32,000 nt of DNA from the NCBI RefSeq assembly GCF_000757865.1, contig NZ_CP007754.1, positions 1,650,001-1,682,000 on the forward strand, read 5' to 3'. The notes under the pieces are model-generated. The model was not told where the DNA came from, did not search any database, and saw only the letters and a list, made by a program, of their open reading frames with translations. Below, one piece after another: positions 15,223-28,353 of the stretch (position 1 is the first letter of the stretch; each line of letters opens with the position of its first letter). Source of the stretch: Prochlorococcus sp. MIT 0801. Lineage in GTDB: Bacteria > Cyanobacteriota > Cyanobacteriia > PCC-6307 > Cyanobiaceae. The translations under genes and the position numbers were made by a program.

Positions 15223-15349
15223 CAATAAGTAAAATTCCAGCGAATAAAATAGATCCCAATAGAAATCCAACAGCCAAAAGCACGGCTATTATTGGTGTAT
15301 TTAAGTAAACAGATATAGTTGCGAGTTGATTACCCTTTGCTTCAGACAC
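15215..15349 (-). CDS. Possible 44-aa single-helix membrane peptide (GTG start), not in the ORF track
   Basis: Hand translation gives (V/M)SEAKGNQLATISVYLNTPIIAVLLAVGFLLGSILFAGILLIAK*. There is no clear RBS. It overlaps the end of the upstream plus-strand gene by 8 nt. Confidence 0.3.
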   Translation of the reverse strand: MSEAKGNQLATISVYLNTPIIAVLLAVGFLLGSILFAGILLIAK

Positions 15350-15471: not shown

Positions 15472-16035
15472 TCAAATAAAATTTGATTTTGGTTTCTTAT
15501 TTTGTAAGATTTTAATATCTTTATCCTTTTCAGTTGCTTTTATTGAGGTAACTTGTTTATCAATTTTTTTATTTATTATTTTTTCATCAGCTCTCTTTAA
15601 ATTATCATCTAGTGAGCTGACTTCAGTTGATTTATCTAAGTCTTTTGTCTCCAGATTTTTTTGGATTGTTGAATTTGTAGATTCTATATCCTTTAAAATA
15701 CTTATATCTTGAGCTTTATTTTGATCAACTTTTAAAATATCGTTGACTTCAGAATTATTAAATAAATTAAAATCAAATCTGCCTTTTGCAAAAGATACTG
15801 AGGTAAATACTAATAATGAACCTAGAATAATAATTAAAAAAATCTTCGAGAATAAACTATTTAGTGGAGTCCAAAATAGTGTTACTTTAGCCGCTTCATT
15901 AGTTTGTTTATATGTATCAGCAGAGGGACTTAAATCTAAAAATATATCTTGGTTAATCCACCCTTTATTAGCTTTCCTGTAGGGAGACTCACTTTTAGTG
16001 AAGTCAAAAACTTCTTGGATTCTTTCTTTAAGCAC
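15472..16035 (-). CDS. Hypothetical single-pass membrane protein with a Lys/Asp/Glu-rich low-complexity tail
   Basis: 187-codon ORF with a GTG start. It has a central TM helix (IFLIIILGSLLVFTSVSFA) and a charged C-terminal half. It lies on the same strand as, and downstream of, the Ala/Lys repeat gene. Confidence 0.55.
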   Translation of the reverse strand: MLKERIQEVFDFTKSESPYRKANKGWINQDIFLDLSPSADTYKQTNEAAKVTLFWTPLNSLFSKIFLIIILGSLLVFTSVSFAKGRFDFNLFNNSEVNDILKVDQNKAQDISILKDIESTNSTIQKNLETKDLDKSTEVSSLDDNLKRADEKIINKKIDKQVTSIKATEKDKDIKILQNKKPKSNFI

Positions 16036-16126
16036 AGGTTACGTTTACCTAAAACTACAAGAACGAAAACATAGCAGAAAGTCAGAATAAAAAAGTTGCT
16101 TTTATGTAGATATTAGTGAAATTGAA

Positions 16127-17152
16127 CTACCCAGCAATAAATACCATCGCAGAAACAAGAATAGCCGAAGCCAAAATCCCTATAGATGCTATTGACACGA
16201 TCTTTCCGGTGTTTAAGGAGACGGATACCGTTAACAATTCAGTTCTTGAGTCTCGTTTTTGTTGTGAATTAATTTGAGTTGGTGAATTACCTTTCTTATT
16301 GGCTTGAAATTTCTTCTGTGTTAGGGCTTTCTTCTCTGCTGCAGCTTTTTTATCTGCTGCGGCTTTCTTATTAGCTGCGGCTTTCTTATCTGCTGCGGCT
16401 TTCTTATCCGCTAAAGCTTTCTTCTCTGCTGCGGCTTTCTTATCTGCTGCAGCTTTTTTATCTGCTGCGGCTTTCTTATTAGCTGCGGCTTTTTTATCTG
16501 CTGCGGCTTTCTTATCCGCTAAAGCTTTCTTATCTGCTGCGGCTTTCTTATCTGCTGCGGCTTTCTTATCCGCTAAAGCTTTCTTATCTGCTGCGGCTTT
16601 CTTATCCGCTAAAGCTTTCTTCTCTGCTGCGGCTTTCTTCTCTGCTGCAGCTTTTTTATCTGCTGCGGCTTTCTTATCCGCTAAAGCTTTCTTCTCTGCT
16701 GCAGCTTTTTTATCTGCTGCGGCTTTCTTCTCTGCTGCAGCTTTTTTATCTGCTGCGGCTTTCTTATCCGCTAAAGCTTTCTTCTCTGCTGCGGCTTTCT
16801 TATCCGCTAACGCTTTCTTCTCTGCTGCGGCTTTCTTATTAGCTGCGGCTTTCTTATCTGCTGCAGCTTTTTTATCTGCTGCGGCTTTCTTATCTGCTGC
16901 GGCTTTCTTATCCGCTAAAGCTTTCTTCTCTGCTGCGGCTTTCTTATCTGCTGCGGCTTTCTTATCCGCTAAAGCTTTCTTCTCTGCTGCGGCTTTCTTA
17001 TCCGCTAACGCTTTCTTCTCTGCTGCGGCTTTCTTCTCTGCTAACGCTTTCTTCTCTGCTAAAGCTTTCTTATCTGCTAAAGCTTTCTTCTCTGCAGCAG
17101 CTTTCTTATCTGCTAACGCTTTCTTTTCTGCCTGAGCTGTTTGAACTTGCAC
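16127..17152 (-). CDS. Tail-anchored Ala/Lys-rich repeat protein: about 45 copies of the hexapeptide (A/L)A(E/D/N)KKA, then a short linker and a C-terminal TM helix
   Basis: 341-codon ORF with a GTG start and no internal ATG until the TM segment. Repeat units differ mainly by synonymous changes (AAG/AAA, GCC/GCT/GCA/GCG), which argues for coding constraint. The C-terminus is IVSIASIGILASAILVSAMVFIAG. Confidence 0.75.
   Translation of the reverse strand: MQVQTAQAEKKALADKKAAAEKKALADKKALAEKKALAEKKAAAEKKALADKKAAAEKKALADKKAAADKKAAAEKKALADKKAAADKKAAADKKAAADKKAAANKKAAAEKKALADKKAAAEKKALADKKAAADKKAAAEKKAAADKKAAAEKKALADKKAAADKKAAAEKKAAAEKKALADKKAAADKKALADKKAAADKKAAADKKALADKKAAADKKAAANKKAAADKKAAADKKAAAEKKALADKKAAADKKAAANKKAAADKKAAAEKKALTQKKFQANKKGNSPTQINSQQKRDSRTELLTVSVSLNTGKIVSIASIGILASAILVSAMVFIAG
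16325..17131. repeat. 18-bp tandem repeat array (about 45 units) inside the Ala/Lys repeat gene
   Basis: Plus-strand units take the form GCTGCGGCTTTCTTATCT, GCTGCAGCTTTTTTATCT or GCTAAAGCTTTCTTCTCT. Confidence 0.9.
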
Positions 17153-17399
17153 TTTAAATCCAAAATTTTGCCTTATTCAAGCACCCAGATCACTATGATT
17201 TTAGAAATATTGGCTAGTTGCAACGAAGTAATGCAATAGATTTTCTTTTCTTCTAAATATTTTCAATATCATCTTAAGTTTTTAGAACTAATAAAGCCTA
17301 ATTCAAATCTCTTCACAAGAAACTTTTTCGTCATTCAGAGGAAAGGATTCGTATTAAAATGAGAATTAAAAATCTTTTTACAAAAAAGTACTAAAAGAA

Positions 17400-19190
17400 A
17401 TGGAAGACTCTTATAAGAAAGAGAATAAAGAAGTCAATGAAGAAAAAACATTCTCAATTCCATCTTCATTAGAAAAAATTAAGGAGAATATTTCAATATC
17501 AAACAATACTCCTTATAAACCATCTAAAGAACAAATAATTAAGCAAGCATTTCAATTTCATTCAGAAGGCAACATTTCAGAAGCATCAAAATATTATCAA
17601 TATTTTATTAATCAAGGATTCAAAGATCATAGAGTTTTTTCTAATTATGGAAGTATTTTGAAAGATCTTGCCAAACTAAAAGAAGCAGAAATTTCAACTC
17701 GTAAAGCCATTGAACTTAATCCTAATTTCTCAAATGCTCATTACAATCTGGGGAATATACTAAGTGATCTTGGCCAACTAAAAGAAGCAGAAATTTCAAC
17801 TCGTAAAGCCATTGAACTTAATCCTAATTTCTCAAATGCTCATTATAGTCTCGGGAACATCCTGAACAATCTTGGCCAACTAAAAGAAGCAGAAATATCA
17901 CTTCGAAAAGCTATTGAACTTAATCCTAATAACGCTAATGCTCATTATAATCTTGGAAACATATTGAGCGAGCTTGGAAAGAAAAAAGAAACAGAAATAT
18001 CACTTCGAAAAGCTATTGAACTTAATCCTGAGCTAGCTCAAGCACATTCCAATTTAGGAAGAATATTGAAAGATACTGGCAATTTGCAAGAAGCAGAAAT
18101 ATTAACTCGAAAAGCTATTGATCTTAAGCCCGATTTGGCTGAGGCTCATTCCAATCTGGGACAAATCTTGAATGATCTTGGAATCTTACAAGATGCAGAA
18201 AACTCTACTCGAAAAGCTATTGAACTTAATCCTGATTTTGCTGAGGCTTATTTAAATCTATCTATGATAGAGCTTCTCAAAGGGAATTATCAATCTGGTC
18301 TAGATAATTATGAATTTAGATTCAAAGTAAATAAACCCAACCTTCCTCATGGCTTAACAAAAATGAAACGAAGAGACAGTAGCAAGTTACAAAAAGAAGA
18401 AAAGATCTTAGTCATCACTGAACAAGGCTTAGGAGATACTATTCAATATATGCGTTACATTCCATATCTAAAAAATCAAGGTTTTAATATTTCTTTTTGT
18501 GCTCAAACTAAACTACATCGATTAATACAAGCCTCAGGTATTGAAAAAAATCCTTTAACTCCTGAGCAAGCAAGTCAAGTTTCAGAAGGTACGTATATTC
18601 CATTATTATCTTTACCTAGATATTTAAAAGTAAGTCCAAATAATCCAATAATTTCAGAGCCATATATCTTTCCAACAAATGAACTAAAAAAGAAATGGAA
18701 AAAAATACTCTCTATAGAAAAAAAACCAATTATTGGAATTAATTGGCAAGGTAATCCAGCAATGGAAAAAATCAATTACAAAGGACGTTCTATACCTTTA
18801 GAAACATTCTCTATGCTTTTTGATCGAAATGACATAAGAATGCTTTCTCTTCAAAAGGGATTTGGTTCAGAACAACTCGATCATTGCTCATTCAGGAATA
18901 AGTTTGTTAAATCCCAACCTATAGTTAATTCAACCTGGGATTTCCTAGAAAATGCTGCCATAATTGAAAATTGTGATTTGATTATTACTTGTGATACTTC
19001 AATTGCTCATTTAGCTGGAGGGATGGGAAAAAAAGTTTGGCTACTGTTAAGAGATATCCCCTTTTGGACTTGGGGACTTGAAAAAGAAAATACATTTTGG
19101 TATCCATCGATTAGATTATTTCGTCAAAAAATTCGTCATAACTGGAATGAGGTTATGGAAAGAGTCGCTAAAGAAATAAAAAACTTATAA
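17400..19190 (+). CDS. TPR-repeat protein fused to a GT9 (heptosyltransferase-like) glycosyltransferase domain (paralog A)
   Basis: About 7 consecutive 34-aa TPR units carry the consensus AEAHxNLGxILxDLGxLKEAExSxRKAIELNPNF. The C-terminal half has GT9-type motifs (ILVITEQGLGDTIQYMRYIPYLK; ITCDTSIAHLAGGMGKKVWLLL). Confidence 0.85.
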   Translation: MEDSYKKENKEVNEEKTFSIPSSLEKIKENISISNNTPYKPSKEQIIKQAFQFHSEGNISEASKYYQYFINQGFKDHRVFSNYGSILKDLAKLKEAEISTRKAIELNPNFSNAHYNLGNILSDLGQLKEAEISTRKAIELNPNFSNAHYSLGNILNNLGQLKEAEISLRKAIELNPNNANAHYNLGNILSELGKKKETEISLRKAIELNPELAQAHSNLGRILKDTGNLQEAEILTRKAIDLKPDLAEAHSNLGQILNDLGILQDAENSTRKAIELNPDFAEAYLNLSMIELLKGNYQSGLDNYEFRFKVNKPNLPHGLTKMKRRDSSKLQKEEKILVITEQGLGDTIQYMRYIPYLKNQGFNISFCAQTKLHRLIQASGIEKNPLTPEQASQVSEGTYIPLLSLPRYLKVSPNNPIISEPYIFPTNELKKKWKKILSIEKKPIIGINWQGNPAMEKINYKGRSIPLETFSMLFDRNDIRMLSLQKGFGSEQLDHCSFRNKFVKSQPIVNSTWDFLENAAIIENCDLIITCDTSIAHLAGGMGKKVWLLLRDIPFWTWGLEKENTFWYPSIRLFRQKIRHNWNEVMERVAKEIKNL

Positions 19191-19259
19191 TCAAAAGAAT
19201 ATAAAGGCAAAATTCCTATATAAGCCTACTATTAAAGTAACATCTAAAGTATTGGGAGA

Positions 19260-19823
19260 ATGAATGGTCTTAAGCTAAATCTTGGATGTGGAGAAAGAAA
19301 GTTGCCAGGTTATATCAATGTAGATAAATTTGGAAGCCCAGATATTAAACATAATTTAGAATCCTTTCCTTGGCCTTGGAAAAAAAATTCAGTATCTGAG
19401 ATACAATTAATACATGTTCTAGAACATTTAGGAAAAGATATAGAAATATACTTTGGAATATTTAAAGAGATGTATAGAATATGTAATAATGGAGCAAATA
19501 TTAGAATAGTTGTTCCCCACTTTAGACATCAATTCTTCTATGATGATCCAACTCATGTAAGAGTTGTCACACCTTTTGGTTTACGATTATTTTCTAAGAA
19601 ATTAAATAAGTTTTGGATAGAAAATGGTTCATCTAATAGTACTCTTGGAATATATTTAGACATCGATTTTGAACTTAAAGAAATAATTTTAAAAGCAAGT
19701 GAAGACTGGTATAGATTACATCCAGATAAAAATGTCGATATTAATTTGCTCCAACAGGAATCGAATATATACAATAATTTAATTGAGCAATATGATATGA
19801 TGCTTGAGGTGGTAAAAGAATAA
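19260..19823 (+). CDS. Class I SAM-dependent methyltransferase-like protein
   Basis: N-terminal LKLNLGCGERKLPGYINVDK (motif I) and IHVLEHL resemble the Methyltransf_11/23 type. A GGGAGA RBS lies just upstream. Confidence 0.65.
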   Translation: MNGLKLNLGCGERKLPGYINVDKFGSPDIKHNLESFPWPWKKNSVSEIQLIHVLEHLGKDIEIYFGIFKEMYRICNNGANIRIVVPHFRHQFFYDDPTHVRVVTPFGLRLFSKKLNKFWIENGSSNSTLGIYLDIDFELKEIILKASEDWYRLHPDKNVDINLLQQESNIYNNLIEQYDMMLEVVKE

Positions 19824-20019
19824 CGATACTGATATTAATAAATCATACAATCGAAACGAATAGATATTACGATTATCATTCTTAGAAGTACAAAACTTTA
19901 TTAGATTTCATATATTGGAAAGAAAGATAGATTAATGTTAGATATTAATTTTTTTTGCTTTTTAAGAAGGAATAATATACCTTAATTAATAAATAACCTA
20001 TTCAACAGATAAATTTATA

Positions 20020-20202
20020 GTGAATAATCTAGAAAATTCACTCAGCGATAGAGTTTTTAAGTTGCATAGAGCAAATAAATTTCTCCATAAAGCACATCTG
20101 ATGAAAGCAGATGCGTGGCTCAATATAAACCGACCAAAACCAGCAATAAACTTCTATAAAGCTAAACGCTCAGCAACTGAGTTGAATCGAATATGTGGAT
20201 AG
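20020..20202 (+). CDS. Small basic hypothetical protein (60 aa, GTG start)
   Basis: Track ORF only; it is Lys/Arg-rich. A truncated look-alike start (GTGAATAATCAAAGAAAT...) occurs at 26331. Coding status is uncertain. Confidence 0.3.
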   Translation: MNNLENSLSDRVFKLHRANKFLHKAHLMKADAWLNINRPKPAINFYKAKRSATELNRICG

Positions 20203-20325
20203 GGAAAAGCAATTTTCCTCCCTACTTTTCCCTCCTAAGCTATAAACTGTTAATTGAGACCTTTAGTCTCATATCCTTACTACAAATGGTCAGAGGATTA
20301 CTAATTTAAAAATACCTAGAGAATT

Positions 20326-20913
20326 ATGGAATCTGATGATAAATATAACAAAGAGCAAAAGGTCTTCAGGATAAAGACATTTACTGTTCCCTTTTCTTTG
20401 GAAAAGATTAAGGAAAATATGCATATTAATACTCATACTTCATCAAATCCTTCAAAAGAAACAATCATTACAAAAGCATTTCAATTTCATTCAGAAGGTA
20501 ACATTTCAGAAGCATCAAAATATTATCAATATTTTATTAATCAAGGATTCAAAGATCATAGAGTTTTTTCAAATTATGGAAGTATTTTGAAAGATCTAGG
20601 AAAATCAAAGGAAGCAGCAAACTTATTACGTAAAGCAATTACAATTAACCCTAAATTTGCTGCTGGACATTACAATCTTGGGAACATGTTGAAAGAAATG
20701 GGCAAGTCAAAAGAAGCAATTTTGTGTTATAAAGAATCACTTTTATGCTATAAAGAAGAAATTAATTCCGATAAAAATATTGATAAAGTCAAAAATAATC
20801 TAGGTGATCTACTATTAAAAAATGGCAATTTAAAAGAAGGCTTATTATATATAAGAGAGGCAAATGGGTCCATTATTCTTAATTATAAAAAATCTAGCAT
20901 AATCATTAATTAA
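20326..20913 (+). CDS. Short TPR protein (paralog B) with no catalytic domain
   Basis: It shares the N-terminal module with paralogs A, C and D; 120 of 122 nt are identical to A across AFQFHSEGNISEASKYYQYFINQGFKDHRVFSNYGSILKDL. Its TAA stop directly abuts the ATG of the next gene, in the same frame. Confidence 0.8.
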   Translation: MESDDKYNKEQKVFRIKTFTVPFSLEKIKENMHINTHTSSNPSKETIITKAFQFHSEGNISEASKYYQYFINQGFKDHRVFSNYGSILKDLGKSKEAANLLRKAITINPKFAAGHYNLGNMLKEMGKSKEAILCYKESLLCYKEEINSDKNIDKVKNNLGDLLLKNGNLKEGLLYIREANGSIILNYKKSSIIIN

Positions 20914-21513
20914 ATGAATAAAGTATTTATCAATAAAAGTAACCTACATCCTCATTTTATTGGCTCTTGGATTATGGACGAATTATCTATATGTAAAGGT
21001 CTTATAAATTATTTTGAACTAAATTCAATTAAACATATTAAAGGCAGAATAGGGGGTGGAATTGATCCTAATACGAAGGATAGTATTGATATTGTTATTC
21101 ATCCTAAAGATATTTTATTGCCAGGTAATGAAATTTTTAAAAAATATCTTGATGAGCTTTTTAATTTCTACAAAAACTATTTAGATGAATGGCCTTTTTT
21201 AAAGGAAATGACTCAAGTATTAGAAATTGGTTCATTCAATCTTCAAAGATATAAACCTGGTCAACATTTTAAAAAAATACATACAGAGCGGGCCAGTATA
21301 GATAGCTCTCATCGTGTTTTTGCTTTTATGACTTACTTAAATGATGTTAAAGAAGGAGGTTCAACATATTTTAGTCATTATGATCTTGAAATACAGCCTA
21401 GAGAGGGATTAACGTTAATTTGGCCCGCGGAATGGACTCACGCACACAGAGGTAATACATTAATAAAAGGTTCAAAATATATCATAACTGGTTGGATAAA
21501 CTTTGCTAATTAA
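20914..21513 (+). CDS. 2OG-Fe(II) oxygenase, prolyl-4-hydroxylase-like
   Basis: KIHTERAS (HxD/E), FMTYLNDVKEGGSTYF, PREGLTLIWPAEWTHAHRG (distal His) and GSKYIITGWINF (2OG-binding Lys context) follow the P4H-type double-stranded beta-helix pattern. Confidence 0.8.
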   Translation: MNKVFINKSNLHPHFIGSWIMDELSICKGLINYFELNSIKHIKGRIGGGIDPNTKDSIDIVIHPKDILLPGNEIFKKYLDELFNFYKNYLDEWPFLKEMTQVLEIGSFNLQRYKPGQHFKKIHTERASIDSSHRVFAFMTYLNDVKEGGSTYFSHYDLEIQPREGLTLIWPAEWTHAHRGNTLIKGSKYIITGWINFAN

Positions 21514-21659
21514 TCCCAATTAATTATTATATTTTCTAATTTTTGTATATAAAAGATATTTTAATTAATATCCTATATGAATTAGATTCATAGCTTAAAT
21601 TATAAGTAATATTTTACCTTAAGAGATAAACATTTAAACGAAGATTAGCATCATAGAAT

Positions 21660-21738
21660 CCTTTAACATTACAACATATTTGGTCATTTGGACTTATACG
21701 GATTCACCCAACCTTAATAGGAACGTAGAGGAAGTTCG
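21660..21738. repeat. Degenerate copy A of the tRNA-Ser 3' end plus downstream-flank repeat
   Basis: ...CAACATATTTGGTCATTTGGACTTATACGGATTCACCCAACCTTAATAGGAACGTAGAGGAAGTTCG aligns with 26711-26797 and with 28150-28224. Confidence 0.55.
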
Positions 21739-22094
21739 CTAGTGGCAAACCAAAAAGAACGACAGCGAAAGGAAATGAACTAATAACTACCTGAGAAATA
21801 CATATATTGCCTCCAAAGCAGGAAAGGCAGAGTGAGTCGGAAGATATTCTTGCTCACTAAAACTTCAGAAAGTTCCAAAAGAAGAGTTAACGCAAATCAT
21901 TAACTATGGATTAAAGGACATAACTAAGTTGGATGACTTCAATCAAGTATTGGATTAGGGAAAACAGTTCTTTTTATCAAGCAAGAATTCTTCATCTAAC
22001 TATATGACTTAAGTCACAATAATCTCAGGAAAAGTTTGAAGTACCAATTAAATTGAGTAGTAGAATTAATGAAATTAGAAGTCCTTAGAAGATA

Positions 22095-24647
22095 ATGGAA
22101 TCTATTGATAAAGATCAAGGAAAAAATAAGATCACTAAAATTAAAATATACCCAGTTCCATATGAGTTAGAAGAAATCAAAGAAAATCTTACTATTGTTA
22201 TCAATACTTCATCTAAAGATTCTAAACAACAAGTAATTAATCAGGCATTTAACTTTCACTCAAAAGGAAATATAGCACAAGCACTAAAATATTATCAACA
22301 GATAATAAATCAAGGATCTAATGATTATAGAGTTTTTTATAATTATGGGTTAATACTAAAAGATCTTGGGAAAGTAAAAGAAGCAGAAGTATCACTTCGC
22401 CGCGCAATTGAAATTAATCCTGATTTCGCTAATGCATATTTAAGTCTTGGAAATTTATTAAGAGGTCTTAGGAATTTTAAAGACGCAGAAATATATACTC
22501 GCAAAGCAATTGAAATCAATCCAAACTTCGCAGAAGCTCATTCCAATCTGGGAAGTATCTTACAAGATATTGGTAAATTAAAAGAAGCAGAAGCATCACT
22601 TCACAAAGCCATTGAACTCAATACTAATGTAGGAGAGGTTCATTATAACTTAGGGATCATTTTAAAAGATCTTGGTAAAATACAAGAATCTGAAAAATCC
22701 ACTCGCAAAGCAATTAAGATTAATCCTAACTTTGCAAATGCTCATATGTATTTAGGAACCATATTAAAAGATCTTGGCAAATTAAAAGAAGCTGAAAAAT
22801 CCACTCGCAAAGCAATTGAAATCAATCCTAACTTTGCAAATGCTCATATGAATTTGGGAACCATATTAAAAGATCTTGATAAATTACAAGAAGCAGAAAT
22901 CTCTACTCGTAAAGCCATTGACATTAATCCTAATTCCGCAGAGGTTCATTACAACTTGGGAATCATATTAAAAGATCTTGGCAAATTAAAAGAAGCTGAA
23001 AAATCCACTCGCAAAGCAATTGAAATTAATCCTAATTTTGCAGTTGCTCATAATAACCTGGGAGATATATTAAGAGCTCTTGGGAATATACAAAAGTCTG
23101 AGTTATCAATAAGAAAAGCTATTGAAATAAATCCTAATTTAGCTTTTGCTCACTTGAATCTGGGGAGAATATTAGTAGATCTAGACAAATTAAAAGAAGC
23201 AGAATTATCTACCAAAAAAGCTATTGAACTCAAACCTGAACTAATAATGGCGCATTTCAATCTTGGAATTATTTTTATAAATCTTGGGAAATATGATGCT
23301 GCTATAAATTGCTATAAAAAAGCTATAAAGTTAAACAATTCTTTCTCACCAGCAAAGGTTGGATTACTTGAATCTAAAAAAGATATATGTGACTGGAGTG
23401 ATCAAAAAGCTGATAATACTTGGATTAAGACTCTTGGTTTTGAAGGTGACGCTGTAATTCCATTCCCTTTCTTCTTTTTTGAAGATAATCCTTTAAAAGA
23501 TTTAAAAAGAGCCCAAAACTTCTATAAACAAAATTTCAAACAAAATGCTGTTAATTTACCTATTTTCAAAAATAAAAGAATTCATATAGGTTACTTCTCT
23601 TCTGACTTTAAAGATCACGCAACTATGCATCTAATTGCTTCTATTTTTGAATTACACGATAAATCAAAATTCAAAATATATTTATATTCATTTACTCCTA
23701 GAGAAGATATATATACAGAGAGAGCTAAACAATCTGGATGTTTTTTTAGAGATATAAAAAATTTGAATACTATTGAAGCTGTTGAATTAGCAAGGAGAGA
23801 TAGACTCGATATAGCTATAGATCTTAAAGGTTATACTAAACATTCTAGAATGAATATCTTTTCATCTCGAGTAGCTCCTATACAAATAAATTATCTTGGA
23901 TATCCAGGATCTCTGGGTGCAGAAACTATTGATTATATAATTGCTGATAATATTTTAATCCCAAAGGAAAAGGAAAGATTTTATTCTGAAAAAATTATAC
24001 GAATGCCAAATTGCTATCAATGTAATGATAATAAAAAAGAAATTTCTAAAGAATCTATTTCCCGTAGAGATTTTAAACTGCCTGATAAAGGATTTATATT
24101 TACTTGTTTTAATTCTAATAAAAAAATATCTCCAAAAGAATTTGATATTTGGATGAGATTACTTAAAGAAGTAAAAGGAAGCGTACTATGGTTATATAAA
24201 TCTAATACTTGGGCAATTCAAAACCTATGTAAAGAAGCAGAGATAAGAAATATTGATTCAGATAGATTATTTTTTGCTAACAAGCTTCCATTAGAAAAAC
24301 ATTTAGCCAGATATTCTCTTGGTGATTTAGCACTTGATACTTTTAACTGTAATGGTCACACTACGACCTCAGATGCTTTATGGGCAGGTTTACCAGTTCT
24401 AACAAAAATTGGAGAAAGCTTTTCTGCAAGAGTATCTGCAAGTTTACTAACTTCTCTAGGGATTCCAGAACTCATTACACATAATGAGAAAGAATATGAA
24501 GAGAAAGCTATTCACATAGCAAATAATCCTGATGTCCTCAAGAACCTAAAGTCGCAAGTAATTACTTTGAGGAATAAATCACCACTTTTTAATTCAAAAT
24601 TATTTACAAAGAATCTAGAAAGTAAATTCCTGGAACTTGTAAAGTAA
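22095..24647 (+). CDS. TPR-repeat protein fused to a GT41 (O-GlcNAc transferase / SPINDLY-like) domain (paralog C)
   Basis: About 11 TPR units are followed by GT41 hallmarks: IHIGYFSSDFKDHATMHLIASIFELHD and LDTFNCNGHTTTSDALWAGLPVLTKIGESFSARVSASLLTSLGIPELI. Confidence 0.9.
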   Translation: MESIDKDQGKNKITKIKIYPVPYELEEIKENLTIVINTSSKDSKQQVINQAFNFHSKGNIAQALKYYQQIINQGSNDYRVFYNYGLILKDLGKVKEAEVSLRRAIEINPDFANAYLSLGNLLRGLRNFKDAEIYTRKAIEINPNFAEAHSNLGSILQDIGKLKEAEASLHKAIELNTNVGEVHYNLGIILKDLGKIQESEKSTRKAIKINPNFANAHMYLGTILKDLGKLKEAEKSTRKAIEINPNFANAHMNLGTILKDLDKLQEAEISTRKAIDINPNSAEVHYNLGIILKDLGKLKEAEKSTRKAIEINPNFAVAHNNLGDILRALGNIQKSELSIRKAIEINPNLAFAHLNLGRILVDLDKLKEAELSTKKAIELKPELIMAHFNLGIIFINLGKYDAAINCYKKAIKLNNSFSPAKVGLLESKKDICDWSDQKADNTWIKTLGFEGDAVIPFPFFFFEDNPLKDLKRAQNFYKQNFKQNAVNLPIFKNKRIHIGYFSSDFKDHATMHLIASIFELHDKSKFKIYLYSFTPREDIYTERAKQSGCFFRDIKNLNTIEAVELARRDRLDIAIDLKGYTKHSRMNIFSSRVAPIQINYLGYPGSLGAETIDYIIADNILIPKEKERFYSEKIIRMPNCYQCNDNKKEISKESISRRDFKLPDKGFIFTCFNSNKKISPKEFDIWMRLLKEVKGSVLWLYKSNTWAIQNLCKEAEIRNIDSDRLFFANKLPLEKHLARYSLGDLALDTFNCNGHTTTSDALWAGLPVLTKIGESFSARVSASLLTSLGIPELITHNEKEYEEKAIHIANNPDVLKNLKSQVITLRNKSPLFNSKLFTKNLESKFLELVK

Positions 24648-24899
24648 TATAAGCAGTCATACTAGTAAGTTTAGGTGATTATGAACTCGTCTGAATCTAA
24701 TTAAAAACTGAGAGAAAGTCCATTATTGGAGAACCAGAATGAACTGGGACGCAAGGGGATGGAAGGTCGAGGCGGAAAAAAGCAATATTTCCCCCTACTT
24801 TTTTCCCTACGAAGTAAAGATGTTAATCAACAGAAAATTATTGTCTTAACAGACTAAATTAACTCAATGTATTTCCCAATGGGGACTTCCTAAGAGATT

Positions 24900-26276
24900 A
24901 TGGAATCTAGTAGTAAAAATCAAGAGAGGGAAAAAGTCATAAAAATAAAGACATTTACAATTCCATCTTCTTTGGGAGAGATCAAAGAAAATATTATAAT
25001 TAATACTGATACTTCATCTAAACATTCTAAAGAGGAAGAAATCTATCAAGTCTCTAAGTTACATTCACAAGAAAACAAATTAGAAGCAGCAAACTATTAT
25101 AATTCCTTAATCAATCAAGGGTCTAATGATTATAGAGTATTTTCTAATTATGGAGTAATATTAAAAGATCTTGGCAAATTAAAAGAAGCTGAAATAACTC
25201 TGAGAAAAGCTATTAAGTTAAACCCACATAACCCAAAGGATTATAAAAATTTAGGAAGTATATTAGTGAATCAAGGTCAATTAAAGGAAGCACTAATAGA
25301 AGTAGAAAAAGCAATTAAAATAAATCCTAATTATGAAAAAGCTCATCTTAATCTAGGAGTTATACTTAGATACAATGGACAAATAAAAGAAGCAGAATTA
25401 TCATTCCGCAAAGCACTAGAAATTAAACCTGATTACGCAGATGCTCATTATAATTTAGGAATTATTTTAAAAGATAGTGGTAGATCAAAAGAGGCAGAAC
25501 TATCATTCCAGAAAGCCATTAAAATTAAACCAAATTGGGAAGCAAGTTTCCTCTATTCGAGTATTCTTTTTGATAAAAAAGATTTTGATGGCTCCCTAAG
25601 TAATCTTCAAAGAATAAAATCTAGCGTAACCTCGGGTAATTTAAAGACAGTCCAAGCAGCAATAACAGCAATCAATTTAACTAAAAAAAAATCACTCAAT
25701 AAAAATCAATTAGACTCCTCAAAAACCTCAAAGTTATTAAAGGAAGAAAAGTTTAATCGACTGATTTTAAAACGACCAGTAGAGAAAGAACTTCTATCGT
25801 ATCTATATAAACTAAATACAATTTTACTAGACAATACAGATCCAAACGATTCGAGATACGGAAAAGGTTTATGCTCAGATTTTAATTTATTTGAAGATAA
25901 TTCACAAATTATTAGAAAGTTAGAAAGTGATCTAATAGAGATATCAAAAAGATCACTTAATAAAAAAAAACTAATAATTACTGACTCATTTTTTAATATT
26001 TTTATTTCAGGTTCTGGATCAAGAAGACATCACCATATTGGGAAACAAGATATGAACTTTGGACTATATTTTCATAAATATTCATTAGTATATTATCTAG
26101 ATATAGGAGATCAAACTTCTCAAAATCCAGGCGTACTTAAATTATATAATCCTGACGAAGAGATACTACCCTCAAACGATATGATTATCATACTTAATAG
26201 TACAAAACTTCATTCAGTTTCATATGTTGGAAAAAAAGATAGAGTAATGGTAGGTATTAATTTCTATGCTTTCTAA
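24900..26276 (+). CDS. TPR-repeat protein fused to a putative 2OG-Fe(II) oxygenase domain of the cyanobacterial/cyanophage type (paralog D)
   Basis: It has the shared N-terminal module plus about 4-5 TPRs. The C-terminal RRHHHIGKQD...SLVYYLDIG...GVLKLYNP...ILPSNDMIIILNSTKLHSVSYVGKKDRVMVGINFY fits an HxH/D...H...R jelly-roll pattern. Confidence 0.7.
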   Translation: MESSSKNQEREKVIKIKTFTIPSSLGEIKENIIINTDTSSKHSKEEEIYQVSKLHSQENKLEAANYYNSLINQGSNDYRVFSNYGVILKDLGKLKEAEITLRKAIKLNPHNPKDYKNLGSILVNQGQLKEALIEVEKAIKINPNYEKAHLNLGVILRYNGQIKEAELSFRKALEIKPDYADAHYNLGIILKDSGRSKEAELSFQKAIKIKPNWEASFLYSSILFDKKDFDGSLSNLQRIKSSVTSGNLKTVQAAITAINLTKKKSLNKNQLDSSKTSKLLKEEKFNRLILKRPVEKELLSYLYKLNTILLDNTDPNDSRYGKGLCSDFNLFEDNSQIIRKLESDLIEISKRSLNKKKLIITDSFFNIFISGSGSRRHHHIGKQDMNFGLYFHKYSLVYYLDIGDQTSQNPGVLKLYNPDEEILPSNDMIIILNSTKLHSVSYVGKKDRVMVGINFYAF

Positions 26277-26665
26277 GAAGAAATAATTTAACTTGATTAA
26301 CAAATAGTTAATTCAATAGCTACAATTAATAGTGAATAATCAAAGAAATCTACGAAATATCAGATTTCCTTAAGTCACCCAGTATTTTATTCCTATTAAT
26401 TACCTTTTTTTGTCCCCAACATATACTCCAACTTCGTGTCAGAATGAGAATTCTGAGGGACAGTCTTTCATCTAAGCCTTTTATAGAATCTAATTAGTAA
26501 TCTTTAACCCCTTCAAGGACTGAAATGACAAGAGGAGGGAGGATAATAGAGAACCCTATAACCTGAAAAACACTACCCACAACGCAGCACCCGAAATAGA
26601 CCGACATACCTGAAACCCGCATCCCTTCAGCGATCTCACTTTCCCCCTACTCAGTGCAAGGAATC

Positions 26666-26797
26666 TATGGCACACTTACTGAGAGCCTTGGACTGCCTGA
26701 TCTTCTAATTCCTTACTGGCAACATTTTTTTCTGTTTCTTGGACTTATATGGACTTGCCCGAACCAATTAAGAACAGAGAGGGAGGACTTTTGAATG
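26666..26797. repeat. Degenerate copy B of the tRNA-Ser 3' end plus downstream-flank repeat
   Basis: TATGGCACA...ACTGGCAACATTT...TTGGACTTATATGGACTTGCCCGAACCAATTAAGAACAGAGAGGGAGGA parallels 28105-28224 (TATGGCACA...ACTGGCATTT...TTGAGTCCTTATGAAGCACCCTGAACCAAAATAAATACGGAGAGGGAGGGA). Confidence 0.6.
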
Positions 26798-26854
26798 ACA
26801 CCAAGTGGACTGTGGTGGAGCAGCATGACGCAAGTGGATGAGATTTTGGGGTTA

Positions 26855-26880
26855 TTCCACCCAACATTCCACCCAACACA
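26855..26880. repeat. CACCCAACA repeat block, left (TTCCACCCAACA x2)
   Basis: The 21-mer CACCCAACATTCCACCCAACA at 26858-26878 recurs exactly at 28071-28091. Confidence 0.85.
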
Positions 26881-26928
26881 TTTAAAATGTTATTTAAGGA
26901 TCACAATTACTGTCTAAAATATACTGTC

Positions 26929-26975
26929 AAAATTAAAAGAGGGACTCAAGATCGCTGAAGCAGCAGGGTCCCTTT
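26929..26975 (-). terminator. Possible terminator for the minus-strand small-ORF pair
   Basis: On the minus strand, GGGAC-22 nt-GTCCC is followed by TCTTTTAATTTT, 15 nt after the stop at 26990. The loop is long, so the structure is only moderately convincing. Confidence 0.45.
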
Positions 26976-26989
26976 CTTAATGCAAGAAA

Positions 26990-27160
26990 TCAAGGTTTCC
27001 AATACTCATCCCATTCATCCTGAAGTTCTTTCTGCGATAAAGAGTTGTAGAAACCTCTCCACTTCTTTTCTGAATTTGCGTCAGTTGCACTCAATGACAC
27101 CATTAGATCTATTCCTTCTTCTTTGGTAAAGGATTTGCCTTGATTTGATTTGAATATCAC
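26990..27160 (-). CDS. Possible small ORF: 56 codons from GTG at 27160, or 37 codons from ATG at 27103
   Basis: Hand translation gives VIFKSNQGKSFTKEEGIDLMVSLSATDANSEKKWRGFYNSLSQKELQDEWDEYWKP*. The GTG directly follows the TAA of the upstream ORF (TAAGTG). Confidence 0.3.
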   Translation of the reverse strand: MIFKSNQGKSFTKEEGIDLMVSLSATDANSEKKWRGFYNSLSQKELQDEWDEYWKP

Positions 27161-27391
27161 TTACGAAGCAATCTCTTCCCAAGGATCACGTGAAGACAGT
27201 TCCTTGAATGGTATCAATTTAAAATCACCTCTCCTGATACCACTACAGATCAATCCATCTGGATGTTCTCTCTTAAATATTTCAACTGCATCTTCTTTTC
27301 GTTCTGATGGAATCGTGACTTTATAAATCACATCACCTGAATCACGAATCTTATAAACAAAAATCCAATCATATTCTTTACTATCCATCAT
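27161..27391 (-). CDS. Hypothetical small protein (76 aa)
   Basis: Track ORF with an ATGATG start. Its composition is balanced and non-repetitive. I recognise no family. Confidence 0.5.
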   Translation of the reverse strand: MMDSKEYDWIFVYKIRDSGDVIYKVTIPSERKEDAVEIFKREHPDGLICSGIRRGDFKLIPFKELSSRDPWEEIAS

Positions 27392-27515
27392 CAGTTCATG
27401 CTGACTAACTTTGTTTTAACTCACTTTGGTCTGATGAACCAATTACACAAATAGAAACAGGTGTTTTCTCTCATGTTCCAATGATTTTGTTTGATTAGAA
27501 ATGGGTTGGAGTTCT

Positions 27516-27736
27516 AGCACTTGTCTTCCCGTAGGTCAGGGAAGTGGTTAGTAAAGAAAATGGATTGTTCACACGGATACACAAGTGCTGAACTTAAAGG
27601 GGGCAACCAAAATCTTGCCCCCTTCTTTAATGGAAAATTTATTGGTTGACCATCTAGACAAAAGCAGTATATTTGTACTAGTTCAATCCCCGTCACAAAC
27701 AACAAAGGAACCACCAGTGAGCAGGTGGTTTTTTTG
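27516..27736 (+). ncRNA. Candidate structured small RNA ending in a strong intrinsic terminator
   Basis: Nested hairpins are AGCACTTGT(27516)/ACAAGTGCT(27581), CTTCCC/GGGAAG (27525-27544) and AAGGGGGCAA/TTGCCCCCTT (27597-27624). The terminator AACCACC-agtgagca-GGTGGTT plus T7 sits at 27709-27736. There is no credible plus-strand ORF. Confidence 0.3.
27709..27736 (+). terminator. Rho-independent terminator (plus strand)
   Basis: A 7-bp GC-rich stem and 8-nt loop are followed by TTTTTTTG. Confidence 0.75.
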
Positions 27737-27752
27737 TCTCTTGAAATAGAAA

Positions 27753-28034
27753 ATGAACCAACCAATCAGAGAAGCATTGCCAACGCCAACAGGATGGTTA
27801 GTTGCACCGACTAGAGATTTTTGTCTGTTCTTTATTCGTGATCCCAAATCGGTCATGGTTGCACCGACTGTCTTGACTCAACTTTGGTACTGCACAGAGG
27901 AAGGCATTCCAACAAGACTAAAGAACACAAGACGATTGGATTATGAGAGTGCTCATGAAACTTGGAACGAACTACTCTCTAATGATTGGGAATTAGTAGA
28001 ACATCAATTCGGTGCTTGTGTTGATGCTGCTTAA
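27753..28034 (+). CDS. Small conserved-hypothetical-like protein, reminiscent of the marine picocyanobacterial DUF1651 family
   Basis: 93 aa. GWLVAP...RRLDYESAHETWNELLSNDWELVEHQFG resembles my memory of DUF1651 (GWL...RRxL...A...W..L...GW..V). Unverified. Confidence 0.5.
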   Translation: MNQPIREALPTPTGWLVAPTRDFCLFFIRDPKSVMVAPTVLTQLWYCTEEGIPTRLKNTRRLDYESAHETWNELLSNDWELVEHQFGACVDAA

Positions 28035-28048
28035 TCAACCACTGATAT

Positions 28049-28091
28049 CACCCAACACAAGATTGTTTAACACCCAACATTCCACCCAACA
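28049..28091. repeat. CACCCAACA repeat block, right (three units)
   Basis: CACCCAACACAA (28049-28060) plus CACCCAACATTCCACCCAACA (28071-28091). Confidence 0.85.
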
Positions 28092-28104
28092 AAAAACTGA
28101 ACTG

Positions 28105-28224
28105 TATGGCACAGTATGGACACTCATGATTCAATCATTTTCGTAATATCTAGTCACTGACTGGCATTTGAGTCCTTATGAAGCACCCTGAACCAAAATA
28201 AATACGGAGAGGGAGGGATTCGAA
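28105..28224. repeat. Copy C (reference copy) of the repeat: the flank downstream of tRNA-Ser plus the tRNA 3' end
   Basis: See copies A and B. The last about 20 nt (28205-28224) are the acceptor and T-arm 3' part of the intact tRNA. Confidence 0.6.
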
Positions 28225-28293: not shown

Positions 28294-28353
28294 ATAAGAA
28301 GTACCATATCAAGTCAAAGCTCAATAAAATTAAATTGTGATCCTCTAAAGATG

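What the first reader, a model, noticed from the sequence alone, without database searches (positions are those of the whole stretch)
16127..17152. 341-aa tail-anchored protein built from about 45 Ala/Lys hexapeptide repeats
Seen directly:
- Residues 8-276 are an almost uninterrupted array of (A/L)A(E/D/N)KKA hexads, encoded by an 18-bp tandem repeat at 16325-17131.
- The array is followed by a short polar linker and one C-terminal hydrophobic helix. There is no signal peptide.
- The only possible start is GTG.
- Repeat units differ largely at synonymous positions, implying selection on the protein rather than on the DNA repeat.

Inference:
- The K(i) to D/E(i+4) spacing and high Ala content predict a very long, charged single alpha-helix or coiled coil. 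About 270 residues would be of the order of 40 nm if fully helical. It would project from a membrane as a spacer or ruler.
- The composition also recalls the Ala/Lys/Glu-rich helical domain II of TolA and Lys/Ala-rich histone-H1-like bacterial proteins. Here, though, the topology is reversed, with a C-terminal anchor.
- Tandem 18-bp units make the length hypervariable by slippage.

The downstream co-oriented gene (15472-16035) is another single-pass, charged low-complexity protein.
Basis: partly seen in the sequence, partly recalled or inferred. Interest (0 to 1): 0.7.

Follow-up and report, generated by a model that had tools for sequence, protein, structure and literature searches.

The report
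Tail-anchored Ala/Lys repeat protein, Prochlorococcus
This is a real, previously uncatalogued Prochlorococcus gene for a membrane protein anchored by its last 24 residues, whose cytoplasmic arm is about 45 copies of a six-residue Ala/Lys/acid unit; the copy number differs widely between close relatives and its function is unknown.

Summary
ORF 16127-17152 (-) encodes 341 aa from a GTG start. It has 45 canonical and 2 degenerate x-A-(E/D/N)-K-K-A hexads, a short linker, and one hydrophobic helix that ends the protein.

It is a real gene. Orthologues lie at the same position in low-light clade I (LLI) Prochlorococcus; the neighbouring gene product is identical to strain MIT 0801's. All arrays are in frame and in 18-nt register. 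The C-terminal module is under purifying selection (pN/pS about 0.15). At the fixed repeat codons, variation is mostly third-position.

The protein is an expanded member of a small orphan family: 25 clusters among 1.84 billion representatives, all 46-135 aa, with 0-8 hexads. The family core is the juxtamembrane motif plus the membrane helix. GTG start and an upstream TGCTTGAATA element were conserved in every locus examined.

Closed genomes carry 40, 45 and about 55 units. Short-read contigs usually break inside the array. The long forms are missing from a 15-billion-protein collection.

The arm is predicted to be a non-amphipathic, polycationic (+48) alpha-helix. It is not a coiled coil and is not a member of the TolA, H1-like or DUF883 families.

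Function is inferred only. I favour a cytoplasmic electrostatic tether whose reach and avidity depend on repeat number. The fixed-ruler idea fits the length variation poorly.

The parts
16127..17152 (-). Complete CDS, 341 aa plus TAG stop, of the tail-anchored Ala/Lys hexad-repeat protein
   Evidence: ORF list. Orthologues are in frame in 17+ genome loci and 31 metagenome loci. Tail pN/pS is about 0.15.
17150..17152 (-). GTG start codon, the only canonical start in the open frame
   Evidence: Sequence. The open frame is 16130-17176. GTG sits at the same place in 13 LLI loci and in distant-clade loci L029 and L030.
17174..17183 (-). Invariant upstream 10-mer TGCTTGAATA, 21 nt before the GTG. 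It is likely an extended -10 promoter element (TGn+TTGAAT) or a regulator site.
   Evidence: Invariant in 7 aligned upstream regions, including L029 and L030, whose synonymous sites are near saturation. It occurs once in the window. Its function is inferred.
16325..17134 (-). 45 canonical 18-nt units encoding (A/L/Q)-A-(E/D/N)-K-K-A, residues 7-276. Net charge is +48 and the region is predicted to be alpha-helical.
   Evidence: Tandem Repeats Finder, unit parsing, charge and moment analysis, AlphaFold2, propensity and stripe geometry.
16289..16324 (-). Two degenerate terminal hexads, LTQKKF and QANKKG (residues 277-288)
16265..16288 (-). Polar linker NSPTQINS (residues 289-296), predicted to break the helix and variable between orthologues
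   Evidence: AlphaFold2 with an alignment places a break at residues 287-296. Mean helix propensity is 0.82 kcal/mol. The alignment columns are variable.
16202..16264 (-). Conserved juxtamembrane motif QQKRDSRTELLTVSVSLNTGK (residues 297-317), the signature of the family
   Evidence: Invariant or nearly invariant columns in A1, A2 and A5. Predicted as a helix continuous with the transmembrane segment.
16130..16201 (-). C-terminal transmembrane helix IVSIASIGILASAILVSAMVFIAG (residues 318-341), rich in Gly/Ala/Ser, with an invariant Gly and Ala. The protein ends with it.
   Evidence: Hydropathy, family alignments, AlphaFold2 pLDDT 81-83.
15472..16035 (-). Co-oriented downstream partner gene, 187 aa. 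It has the conserved N-terminal motif ESPYRxANKGW, one transmembrane helix and a variable charged C-terminus.
   Evidence: The gene pair is kept 91-111 bp apart in LLI, L029, L030 and L065, in L030 within a different neighbourhood. It is absent in L064. No terminator-like site lies between the two genes.
15268..15291 (-). Terminator-like hairpin downstream of the partner gene, a possible end of a two-gene transcript
   Evidence: Consensus scan only. This is weak evidence.

Best explanation
**What it is (shown).** This is a genuine protein-coding gene of an LLI-clade Prochlorococcus. The neighbouring gene product is identical to that of strain MIT 0801. [quoted passage not shown]

**Constant part of the family.** About 45 residues are conserved: a juxtamembrane helix (S/Q)-x-K-R-x-x-R-x-E-L-L-x-V-S-V-x-L-N-T-G-K that runs straight into a Gly/Ala/Ser-rich transmembrane helix. 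That helix ends the protein. In every locus examined the gene starts at GTG and sits behind a conserved TGCTTGAATA element. It is usually followed by a single-pass membrane protein gene.

**Variable part.** The N-terminal arm is built of x-A-(E/D)-K-K-A hexads. There are 0-8 copies in most family members and 40-55 in closed LLI genomes, with 45 plus 2 degenerate copies here.

**How it likely works (inferred).**
- There is no signal peptide and the arm carries +48 net charge, so the arm stays in the cytoplasm.
- The arm is predicted to form a long, monomeric, non-amphipathic alpha-helix of up to about 40 nm. At 3.6 residues per turn the 18-residue super-period gives three straight Lys-Lys stripes, three acidic stripes and three Ala/Leu stripes.
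- I propose a membrane-tethered polycationic arm. It would bind polyanionic cytoplasmic partners (nucleic acid or ribosomes, or the anionic face of a neighbouring membrane) by multivalent electrostatics.
- Reach and avidity would be set by hexad number. That number changes through in-frame gain or loss of 18-nt units or multi-unit blocks.
- The conserved tail, perhaps paired with the downstream protein, would provide membrane placement.
For: **Gene reality**
- Orthologues are syntenic and in frame in LLI loci, and every array keeps the 18-nt register with 0% indels.
- Tail pN/pS is about 0.15 over 55 sequences.
- At the fixed repeat codons, third-position variation exceeds first- and second-position variation 5-10 fold over 591 units.
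- Strain-specific synonymous codons fill whole arrays while the peptide is unchanged.

**Family**
- A profile of the tail finds only 25 clusters among 1.84 billion representatives. All are 46-135 aa, and many carry a few hexads.
- The GTG start and the upstream 10-mer are conserved.
- The gene pair is conserved.

**Arm properties**
- Net charge is +48, hydrophobic moment is 0 at 100 degrees, and there are 41 K->D/E i+4 pairs.
- AlphaFold2 predicts helix at pLDDT >90, then a linker break, then one helix through the juxtamembrane motif and the transmembrane segment.
- Helix propensity is 0.20 kcal/mol, and the stripes are three-fold symmetric.

**Precedents from papers**
- C-tail-anchored YqjD/ElaB/YgaM tether ribosomes to the membrane (bioRxiv 10.1101/2024.08.16.608256).
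- A net-positive single alpha-helix binds DNA, and its length matters (PMC10335832).
- Expansion of Lys-rich repeats creates length-dependent targeting (PMC5207086).
Against: - There is no direct evidence of expression, localisation or any ligand.
- Each hexad carries an acidic residue, so charge density (+1 per 6 residues) is far below that of H1-, HC2- or AlgP-type DNA binders.
- The Lys residues are not concentrated on one face, unlike the CAF-1 KER helix.
- AlphaFold2 readily draws helices for low-complexity charged sequences. pTM is 0.29, and the hairpin at residue 150 is probably an artefact.
- The arm could be an expanded coil rather than a rod.
- Some family members have no hexads at all (P0234, P0237, P0241, P0246), so the arm may be dispensable for the core function.
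- Short arrays in single-cell and metagenome assemblies may be collapsed, so the true range of lengths within LLI is uncertain.
Confidence: 0.4

Rival explanations
1. Near-neutral runaway expansion. The function lies entirely in the conserved tail, with or without the partner protein. The N-terminal arm only needs to be soluble and cytoplasmic. In LLI strains the 18-nt repeat has grown by slippage or unequal recombination, and the length itself is not selected.
For: - Family members exist with 0-8 hexads.
- Unit number varies widely even within LLI.
- Higher-order periods of 36, 54 and 90 bp and strain-specific unit types point to recent block duplications and homogenisation.
Against: - The peptide pattern at four of the six positions is held against abundant synonymous change.
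- No out-of-register indel or stop occurs in 56 arrays.
- All three closed LLI genomes keep 40 or more units, in an organism known for genome streamlining and nitrogen thrift (established knowledge). Prochlorococcus genomes would be expected to lose a useless 0.8-kb Lys-rich insert.
Confidence: 0.25
2. Rigid spacer or molecular ruler. A stiff helix of about 40 nm projects from the membrane and sets a fixed distance between the membrane and another structure.
For: - The helix is predicted to be long and uninterrupted, with very high helix propensity.
- The linker and the continuous juxtamembrane/transmembrane helix would hold it at the membrane.
Against: - Length differs between closed genomes of one clade: 40, 45 and about 55 units, or roughly 36-50 nm.
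- It differs at least ten-fold across the family, with no known matching difference in cell architecture.
- A helix-breaking linker (287-296) separates rod and anchor, so the orientation is not fixed.
- No distal binding domain exists. The N-terminal cap is only 6 residues.
Confidence: 0.12
3. A specific functional analogue of YqjD/ElaB/YgaM. In this reading the protein is a tail-anchored factor that docks ribosomes at the membrane and silences them, for example in darkness or under stress.
For: - The topology is the same: a helical cytoplasmic part, a C-terminal transmembrane helix rich in small residues, and adjacent genes for small membrane proteins (paper).
- The polycationic arm would have affinity for rRNA.
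- The paper's survey of DUF883 proteins lists no cyanobacteria among the phyla, so the niche could be filled by an analogue.
Against: - There is no sequence relationship. No DUF883 hit appears even at E<=10.
- The conserved Pro-Trp before the transmembrane helix and the terminal Arg-Arg are absent (sequence).
- In YqjD the ribosome contact depends on its N-terminus (paper section title), whereas here the N-terminus is a 6-residue cap on a repeat.
Confidence: 0.1
4. An exported or surface protein whose C-terminal hydrophobic segment is a sorting signal (LPXTG, PEP-CTERM or GlyGly-CTERM type), or whose arm spans the periplasm like the linkers of TolA, RodZ or SPOR proteins.
For: - The full-length search returns RodZ, SPOR, TolA-like and surface-lipoprotein linkers.
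- The neighbourhood is cell-envelope related: NlpC/P60, a beta-lactamase-like gene, GT2, and alr in other clades.
- NCBIfam gives a weak ClfA repeat hit.
Against: - There is no signal peptide or N-terminal hydrophobic segment.
- A 290-residue arm with +48 net charge is very unlikely to cross a membrane (positive-inside rule, established knowledge).
- There is no sorting motif and no basic cluster after the transmembrane helix. The protein ends ...FIAG.
- No CTERM-type NCBIfam model matches the tail.
- The hits are low-complexity matches with little or no BLAST-alignable identity.
Confidence: 0.03
5. A non-coding DNA tandem repeat, or a gene on the other strand, with the ORF arising by chance.
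For: - A + strand frame is open across exactly the array (16308-17132, 275 codons).
- The long forms are absent from a 15-billion-protein collection.
Against: - The + strand frame has no start codon and stops at the array edges.
- The - strand frame continues into a tail under purifying selection and into a conserved N-terminus and GTG.
- Codon-position asymmetry of variation fits the - strand frame.
Confidence: 0.01

Closest known systems
TolA domain II (cell-envelope integrity protein TolA)
   Same: An Ala/Lys/Glu-rich, low-complexity, predicted long alpha-helical segment attached to a single membrane anchor. Short family members give weak NCBIfam similarity to the TolA repeat region.
   Different: TolA has an N-terminal anchor, a periplasmic helix and a globular C-terminal domain III. 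Here the anchor is C-terminal, the arm is cytoplasmic, and there is no globular domain. Scores are 8-14 bits against cut-offs of 59-213. It is not a homologue.
YqjD/ElaB/YgaM (DUF883) C-tail-anchored ribosome-binding proteins of Proteobacteria
   Same: Both lack a signal peptide and have a largely helical cytoplasmic part and a C-terminal transmembrane helix rich in Gly and small residues. Both have neighbouring genes for small membrane proteins (bioRxiv 10.1101/2024.08.16.608256).
   Different: There is no DUF883 signature and no Pro-Trp or terminal Arg-Arg. DUF883 proteins have a unique, non-repetitive sequence of about 100 aa. Here the arm is a hexad repeat of variable number.
CAF-1 KER region, a DNA-binding single alpha-helix
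   Same: A long, isolated, K/E-rich helix with net positive charge. Its length affects function (PMC10335832).
   Different: KER has dense i/i+4 and i/i+3 ion-pair networks and a positive face. The hexad arm has only K->D/E i+4 pairs, 44% Ala and three-fold symmetric charge stripes. KER is eukaryotic, soluble and not a tandem DNA repeat.
Lysine-rich tandem repeats of exported Plasmodium proteins (GARP, LYMP, KAHRP)
   Same: Short Lys-rich units expand and contract. Copy number differs between isolates, and binding or targeting efficiency depends on repeat number (PMC5207086).
   Different: Those repeats are disordered, eukaryotic and target the erythrocyte cytoskeleton. There is no membrane anchor and no sequence relationship.
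Bacterial histone-H1-like Lys/Ala repeat proteins (HC2 PF07382, AlgP-type, Burkholderia H1-like NF038053)
   Same: Lys/Ala-rich tandem oligopeptide repeats. One weak hit was found (16.9 bits against a cut-off of 80).
   Different: Those proteins lack regular acidic residues, are soluble nucleoid proteins and often contain Pro. Here every unit has one D/E, there is no Pro, and there is a membrane anchor. No Pfam hit was found.
Designed or model Ala-based helical peptides: Baldwin-type (i,i+4) E/K peptides and A(EAAAK)nA rigid linkers (from my own knowledge, not checked in a paper here)
   Same: Alanine-rich sequences with spaced Glu and Lys that form stable monomeric helices. The natural hexad AAEKKA is close in composition.
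   Different: Those are synthetic and short. This is a natural array of about 280 residues with adjacent Lys-Lys and frequent Asp. Its helicity is untested.

Membership tests
Prochlorococcus-centred tail-anchored 'LLxVSVxLNTGK' family (orphan, defined here) | C-terminal module: basic/acidic juxtamembrane motif, V-S-V-x-L-N-T-G-K, then a transmembrane helix with an invariant Gly and Ala that ends the protein | tested here: met
   The window tail is identical or nearly identical at all invariant columns of A1, A2 and A5. The profile search recovers only this family.
Prochlorococcus-centred tail-anchored 'LLxVSVxLNTGK' family (orphan, defined here) | GTG start preceded by the TGCTTGAATA element; synteny next to the beta-lactamase-like, NlpC/P60, GT2 and psaL-psaB-psaA genes | tested here: met
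   (start and motif). (synteny in LLI, L029, L064 and L065). L030 has a different neighbourhood.
TolA | N-terminal membrane anchor | tested here: not met
   The only hydrophobic segment is at residues 318-341.
TolA | C-terminal TolA domain III, or a match to the full-length tolA models | tested here: not met
   No Pfam hit. TIGR02794 and PRK09510 score 8-14 bits against cut-offs of 59 and 213, and only on the repeat region of short relatives.
YqjD/ElaB/YgaM (DUF883) | C-tail anchor without a signal peptide | tested here: met
   and AlphaFold2.
YqjD/ElaB/YgaM (DUF883) | DUF883 N- and C-terminal domain signatures; conserved Pro-Trp before the transmembrane helix; terminal Arg-Arg or Arg-Lys | tested here: not met
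   No DUF883 Pfam match at E<=10 for the window protein or three short relatives. The tail reads ...LNTGK-TM-...FIAG. Features are taken from the paper.
YqjD/ElaB/YgaM (DUF883) | Binding to the 50S subunit and inhibition of translation | not testable with these tools
   This needs biochemistry.
Classical charged single alpha-helix (E/K/R SAH domain) | Dense network of acid(i)->base(i+4 or i+3) ion pairs along the helix | tested here: not met
   There are 0 acid->base pairs at i+3 or i+4. The 41 pairs are all base->acid at i+4. The region is 44% Ala.
Classical charged single alpha-helix (E/K/R SAH domain) | Monomeric helix with non-cooperative melting | not testable with these tools
   Only prediction is available: AlphaFold2 helix with pLDDT >90 and propensity 0.20 kcal/mol.
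Coiled coil | Heptad or hendecad hydrophobic seam (amphipathic helix) | tested here: not met
   Hydrophobic moment is 0.04 at 100 degrees and 0.015 at 102.9 degrees. Fourier peaks appear only at periods 6 and 2. Stripes are three-fold symmetric.
Histone H1-like / HC2 / AlgP-type Lys/Ala repeat nucleoid proteins | Match to PF07382 or NF038053; basic repeats essentially without acidic residues | tested here: not met
   No Pfam hit. NF038053 scores 16.9 bits against a cut-off of 80 on one short relative. Each hexad contains one D/E.
C-terminal sorting-signal proteins (LPXTG, PEP-CTERM, GlyGly-CTERM) | N-terminal signal peptide, plus a motif, a transmembrane helix and a basic cluster at the C-terminus | tested here: not met
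   The N-terminus is hydrophilic. The protein ends with the helix (...FIAG). No CTERM-type NCBIfam model matches the tail.

The most novel reading that the evidence does not exclude
The arm is a genetically tunable structural element. It would be a membrane-anchored, three-fold-striped polycationic single helix whose length is set by 18-nt repeat gain or loss. That length would determine how far, or how strongly, the nucleoid, ribosomes or a neighbouring thylakoid membrane are held from the anchoring membrane. LLI Prochlorococcus lineages would then adjust cell architecture through a variable-number tandem repeat (VNTR) that is invisible to short-read assemblies and to gene callers.
Probability: 0.12. 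Interest if true: 0.8.

Novelty: new variant of a known kind. Interest (0 to 1): 0.5.

Why it matters
- **A hidden gene in a very streamlined genome.** Prochlorococcus is the most abundant phototroph and has one of the most streamlined genomes of any free-living cell. Even so, one clade keeps and expands a nitrogen-costly, 33% Lys, 0.8-kb repeat inside a conserved membrane protein gene.
- **A blind spot in catalogues.** The long forms are absent from a 15-billion-protein collection. Short-read contigs break inside the array in 26 of 31 metagenome loci. Marine gene catalogues therefore under-represent this locus.
- **A possible strain marker.** The array could serve as a natural variable-number tandem repeat (VNTR) for typing LLI strains.
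- **A natural length series.** The family runs from 0 to about 55 hexads on the same anchor. It is a ready-made series for testing how the length of a charged helix affects membrane-proximal organisation.
- **An open function.** No function is known for any family member, so a first localisation or interaction result would annotate a gene found at the same position in several Prochlorococcus clades.

Tried and rejected
- **Full-length homology search.** It returned only low-complexity look-alikes (RodZ, SPOR, TolA-like, surface-lipoprotein linkers, H1-like), mostly with no BLAST-alignable identity. I rejected these as evidence of homology. Searching with the tail alone solved the problem.
- **Exact-sequence look-ups.** The window protein with V or M as first residue, and the MIT 0916, MIT 1012 and L025 long forms, are not on record.
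- **Family libraries.** Pfam and NCBIfam give no family, even at lenient thresholds.
- **Solved structures.** A sequence search of the Protein Data Bank found nothing.
- **Viral contigs.** There are no phage homologues.
- **Rfam.** Only the tRNA-Ser gene was found.
- **Promoter and terminator scan.** No promoter was called upstream of the gene. The 'terminators' on the + strand are repeat artefacts.
- **Literature.** Searches for the protein, the motif or tail-anchored proteins in Prochlorococcus found nothing specific, only analogies.
- **AlphaFold2 on the tail.** Confidence was too low (mean pLDDT 61) to justify a fold search, so none was run.
- **Other ideas considered and dropped.** A type I toxin and an anti-sigma factor for the partner were both dropped, because the architecture and motifs do not fit.
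Full report
**1. What is in the sequence**

The minus strand carries an ORF at 16127-17152, 341 aa, starting with GTG. The frame is open only from 17176. The eight codons between the upstream stop and the GTG contain no ATG, GTG or TTG, so GTG is the only canonical start.

Tandem Repeats Finder reports one array at 16325-17131. Its periods are 36, 54 and 90, all multiples of 18, with 84-87% matches, no indels and a score of about 1000.

Parsed in frame, the array holds 45 canonical hexads (A/L/Q)-A-(E/D/N)-K-K-A at residues 7-276, plus two degenerate ones at 277-288. There are 16 DNA unit types and 8 peptide types.

After the array come three elements:
- a polar linker, NSPTQINS;
- the motif QQKRDSRTELLTVSVSLNTGK;
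- a 24-residue hydrophobic segment, IVSIASIGILASAILVSAMVFIAG, which ends the protein.

The N-terminus is hydrophilic.

**2. Where the window comes from and what surrounds the gene**

The window encodes psaA and psaB. The product of the downstream gene is 100% identical to a hypothetical protein of Prochlorococcus sp. MIT 0801.

On one side lie a GT2 glycosyltransferase, an NlpC/P60 peptidase and a beta-lactamase-like gene. On the other side lies a low-GC block (0.28-0.31) of TPR, GT9-like and 2OG-oxygenase genes. That block ends at a tRNA-Ser gene.

In another clade (L029) the gene sits directly beside alr, prfA and ribosomal protein genes. The low-GC block therefore looks like an island inserted next to the gene in this strain.

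**3. It is a real gene**

I used the beta-lactamase-like neighbour to fetch 28 syntenic loci. The orthologue is present and in frame wherever the contig reaches it. It has the same N-terminus (VQAKTAQ...) and a nearly identical tail. A metagenome scan with the tail added 31 more loci, all in frame.

Three lines of evidence show selection on the protein:
- Over 55 sequences, the last 46 codons have mean pS 0.47 and pN 0.07, a ratio of about 0.15.
- In 591 in-register units from 56 arrays, taken with no filter on residue identity, the four fixed codons vary mostly at the third position. Third-position mismatches number 97-237, against 0-47 at positions 1 and 2.
- Arrays of different strains are filled with different synonymous codons for the same peptide. 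For example, Lys-5 is AAA in 47 of 47 units here but AAG in 29 of 40 units in MIT 0916. Ala-1 is GCT in 12 of 12 Ala units in L021.

The + strand frame that is open across the array has no start codon and ends at the array edges. It is not a rival gene.

**4. It belongs to a small orphan family whose core is the tail**

A search with the whole protein is swamped by low-complexity matches. A profile of the tail alone finds short proteins of 63-116 aa. The two that carry a source name are Prochlorococcus 'hypothetical' proteins; most come from unnamed marine metagenome contigs.

An exhaustive HMM scan of 1.84 billion cluster representatives finds only 25 clusters. All are 46-135 aa. Many carry 2-8 hexad-like units (AAEKKA, AAERKA, AAQKKA), and a few carry none.

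Invariant positions lie in the V-S-V...T-G-K motif and in the membrane helix (Gly, Ala, Phe).

Two further features are conserved at the DNA level. Both hold even in loci L029 and L030, whose synonymous sites are near saturation (pS 0.77-0.94):
- the GTG start;
- an invariant TGCTTGAATA 21 nt upstream. It occurs once in the window. Read as TGn plus TTGAAT, it looks like an extended -10 element. That reading is an inference.

There is no match in Pfam, NCBIfam, solved structures, phage contigs or Rfam.

**5. The downstream gene is a frequent partner**

A single-pass protein of about 180-213 aa follows at 91-111 bp in LLI, L029, L030 and L065. In L030 the pair sits in a different neighbourhood.

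Its N-terminal motif, ESPYRxANKGW, is invariant. Its C-terminus is variable and charged. It has no family assignment. It is absent in L064.

No terminator-like site separates the two genes, and one lies downstream of the pair. Co-transcription is plausible but not shown.

**6. Repeat number**

Three closed genomes carry these arrays:

| Genome | Units | Array length |
|---|---|---|
| MIT 0916 | 40 | 732 bp |
| This window (MIT 0801-like) | 45 (+2 degenerate) | 807 bp |
| MIT 1012 | about 55 | 988 bp |

Complete arrays in single-cell and metagenome assemblies have 1-28 units.

Assemblies often fail here. In 26 of 31 metagenome loci the contig ends inside the array, and the same happens in several single-cell contigs and in a Logan contig. 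Long arrays are therefore probably common in nature, and some short assembled arrays may be collapsed.

Higher-order periods and repeated blocks of units point to multi-unit duplications. Every change seen keeps the reading frame.

The long forms from all three closed genomes are absent from the 15-billion-protein collection. Short forms and the neighbouring genes are present. The gene seems to be missed by gene calling when the array is long.

**7. Physical character of the arm**

Composition and charge:
- The repeat is 44% Ala, 33% Lys and 16% Asp plus Glu.
- It carries 90 positive and 42 negative charges, a net charge of +48.
- It has 41 K(i)->D/E(i+4) pairs and no acid->base i+3 or i+4 pairs.
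- Its hydrophobic moment is essentially zero at 100 and 102.9 degrees.

It is therefore neither a coiled coil nor a classical E/K single alpha-helix.

Mean helix propensity is 0.20 kcal/mol, against 0.50-0.60 for neighbouring proteins. The linker scores 0.82.

AlphaFold2 gives these predictions:
- On the single sequence, helix 2-148 and 152-288, mostly at pLDDT >90. The fold-back near residue 150 and the pTM of 0.29 show that no tertiary structure is predicted.
- With a family alignment on the last 97 residues, a helix to residue 286, a break at 287-296, and one helix from 297 to 340 through the motif and the membrane segment. Confidence is moderate (mean pLDDT 61, rising to 81-83 in the membrane helix).

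At 3.6 residues per turn, three hexads make exactly five turns. The helix surface would then carry three straight Lys-Lys stripes, three acidic stripes and three Ala/Leu stripes. A fully helical arm would be 40-42 nm long.

With no signal peptide and a +48 arm, the arm should stay in the cytoplasm. This follows from the positive-inside rule and is an inference.

**8. Mechanism**

*Shown:* this is a conserved tail-anchored membrane protein with a variable, selected hexad arm.

*Inferred:* the arm is a cytoplasmic, polycationic, largely helical tether. It would bind polyanions such as nucleic acid, ribosomes or anionic lipid surfaces through many weak contacts, so that repeat number sets its reach and avidity.

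Three published precedents fit this idea:
- C-tail-anchored YqjD/ElaB/YgaM tether ribosomes to the membrane (bioRxiv 10.1101/2024.08.16.608256).
- The net-positive KER single helix of CAF-1 binds DNA in a length-dependent way (PMC10335832).
- Lys-rich repeats in Plasmodium gain length-dependent targeting by expansion (PMC5207086).

Several points count against it:
- There is one acidic residue per unit.
- There is no basic face.
- Some family members have no arm.
- There are no expression or binding data.

The main rival is that arm length is nearly neutral and the function lies in the tail and the partner. The ruler idea is weakened by the spread of lengths and by the flexible linker. Export or sorting-signal readings and a non-coding reading are effectively excluded.

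**9. Comparison with known families and verdict**

The resemblance to TolA domain II and to H1-like proteins is compositional only. Defining features were tested and not met: anchor position, TolA domain III, the family models, and the absence of acidic residues. The protein shares topology with DUF883 proteins but none of their signatures.

I file it as a new variant of a known kind: a tail-anchored protein with a low-complexity charged helical arm. It belongs to an undescribed orphan family in which every named member and genome locus is Prochlorococcus.

Interest is moderate. The object is real, unusual, clade-specifically expanded and hidden from catalogues, but its function remains an inference.

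Noticed in passing
window 17174-17183 (- strand): An invariant 10-mer, TGCTTGAATA, lies 21 nt upstream of the GTG start. It is conserved in LLI loci and in distant-clade loci L029 and L030. It may be an extended -10 element or a regulator site. It occurs only once in the window.
   Followed up: partly
window 16127-17152; L007 11802-12731; L017 11810-12982: The long-array proteins of three closed genomes (MIT 0801-like window, MIT 0916, MIT 1012) are not present in the 15-billion-protein collection. Short-array orthologues and the adjacent genes are present. Gene callers seem to skip the gene when the array is long.
   Followed up: yes
L032-L063 (metagenome contigs); L005, L009, L012, L013, L015, L022, L027, L031, L064: Most short-read contigs end inside the repeat (26 of 31 metagenome loci). 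The array breaks assemblies, so complete short arrays may be collapsed.
   Followed up: yes
window 16308-17132 (+ strand): The opposite strand has a 275-codon open frame, (AAAFLS)n, confined exactly to the array and with no start codon. It is a by-product of the repeat, not a gene.
   Followed up: yes
window 15472-16035 (-); L029 6461-7063; L030 8425-9066; L065 4603-5139: The downstream single-pass protein has an invariant N-terminal motif, ESPYRxANKGW, and no family assignment. It travels with the tail-anchored gene even when the neighbourhood differs (L030), but it is missing in L064.
   Followed up: partly
window about 17400-28300: A low-GC block (0.28-0.31) of TPR, GT9-like and 2OG-Fe(II) oxygenase genes ends at tRNA-Ser(GCT), 28204-28294 (-). 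In L029 the tail-anchored gene lies directly next to alr, prfA and ribosomal genes, so this block looks like a genomic island inserted beside the gene.
   Followed up: partly
window 17664-18000 (+): The adjacent TPR/GT9-like gene (17400-19190) contains its own 102-bp tandem repeat, with at least 3.3 copies at 85% identity (the scan stopped at position 18000). The repeat encodes near-identical TPR units.
   Followed up: no
window 16325-17134 (-): Three hexads make exactly five turns of an ideal alpha-helix. The arm would therefore carry three straight Lys-Lys, acidic and Ala/Leu stripes. Whether the Ala/Leu stripes allow lateral self-association was not tested.
   Followed up: partly
window 16001-17000: The repeat is a local composition anomaly. 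GC is 0.43, against about 0.30-0.35 in the flanks, and AT skew is -0.40.
   Followed up: no
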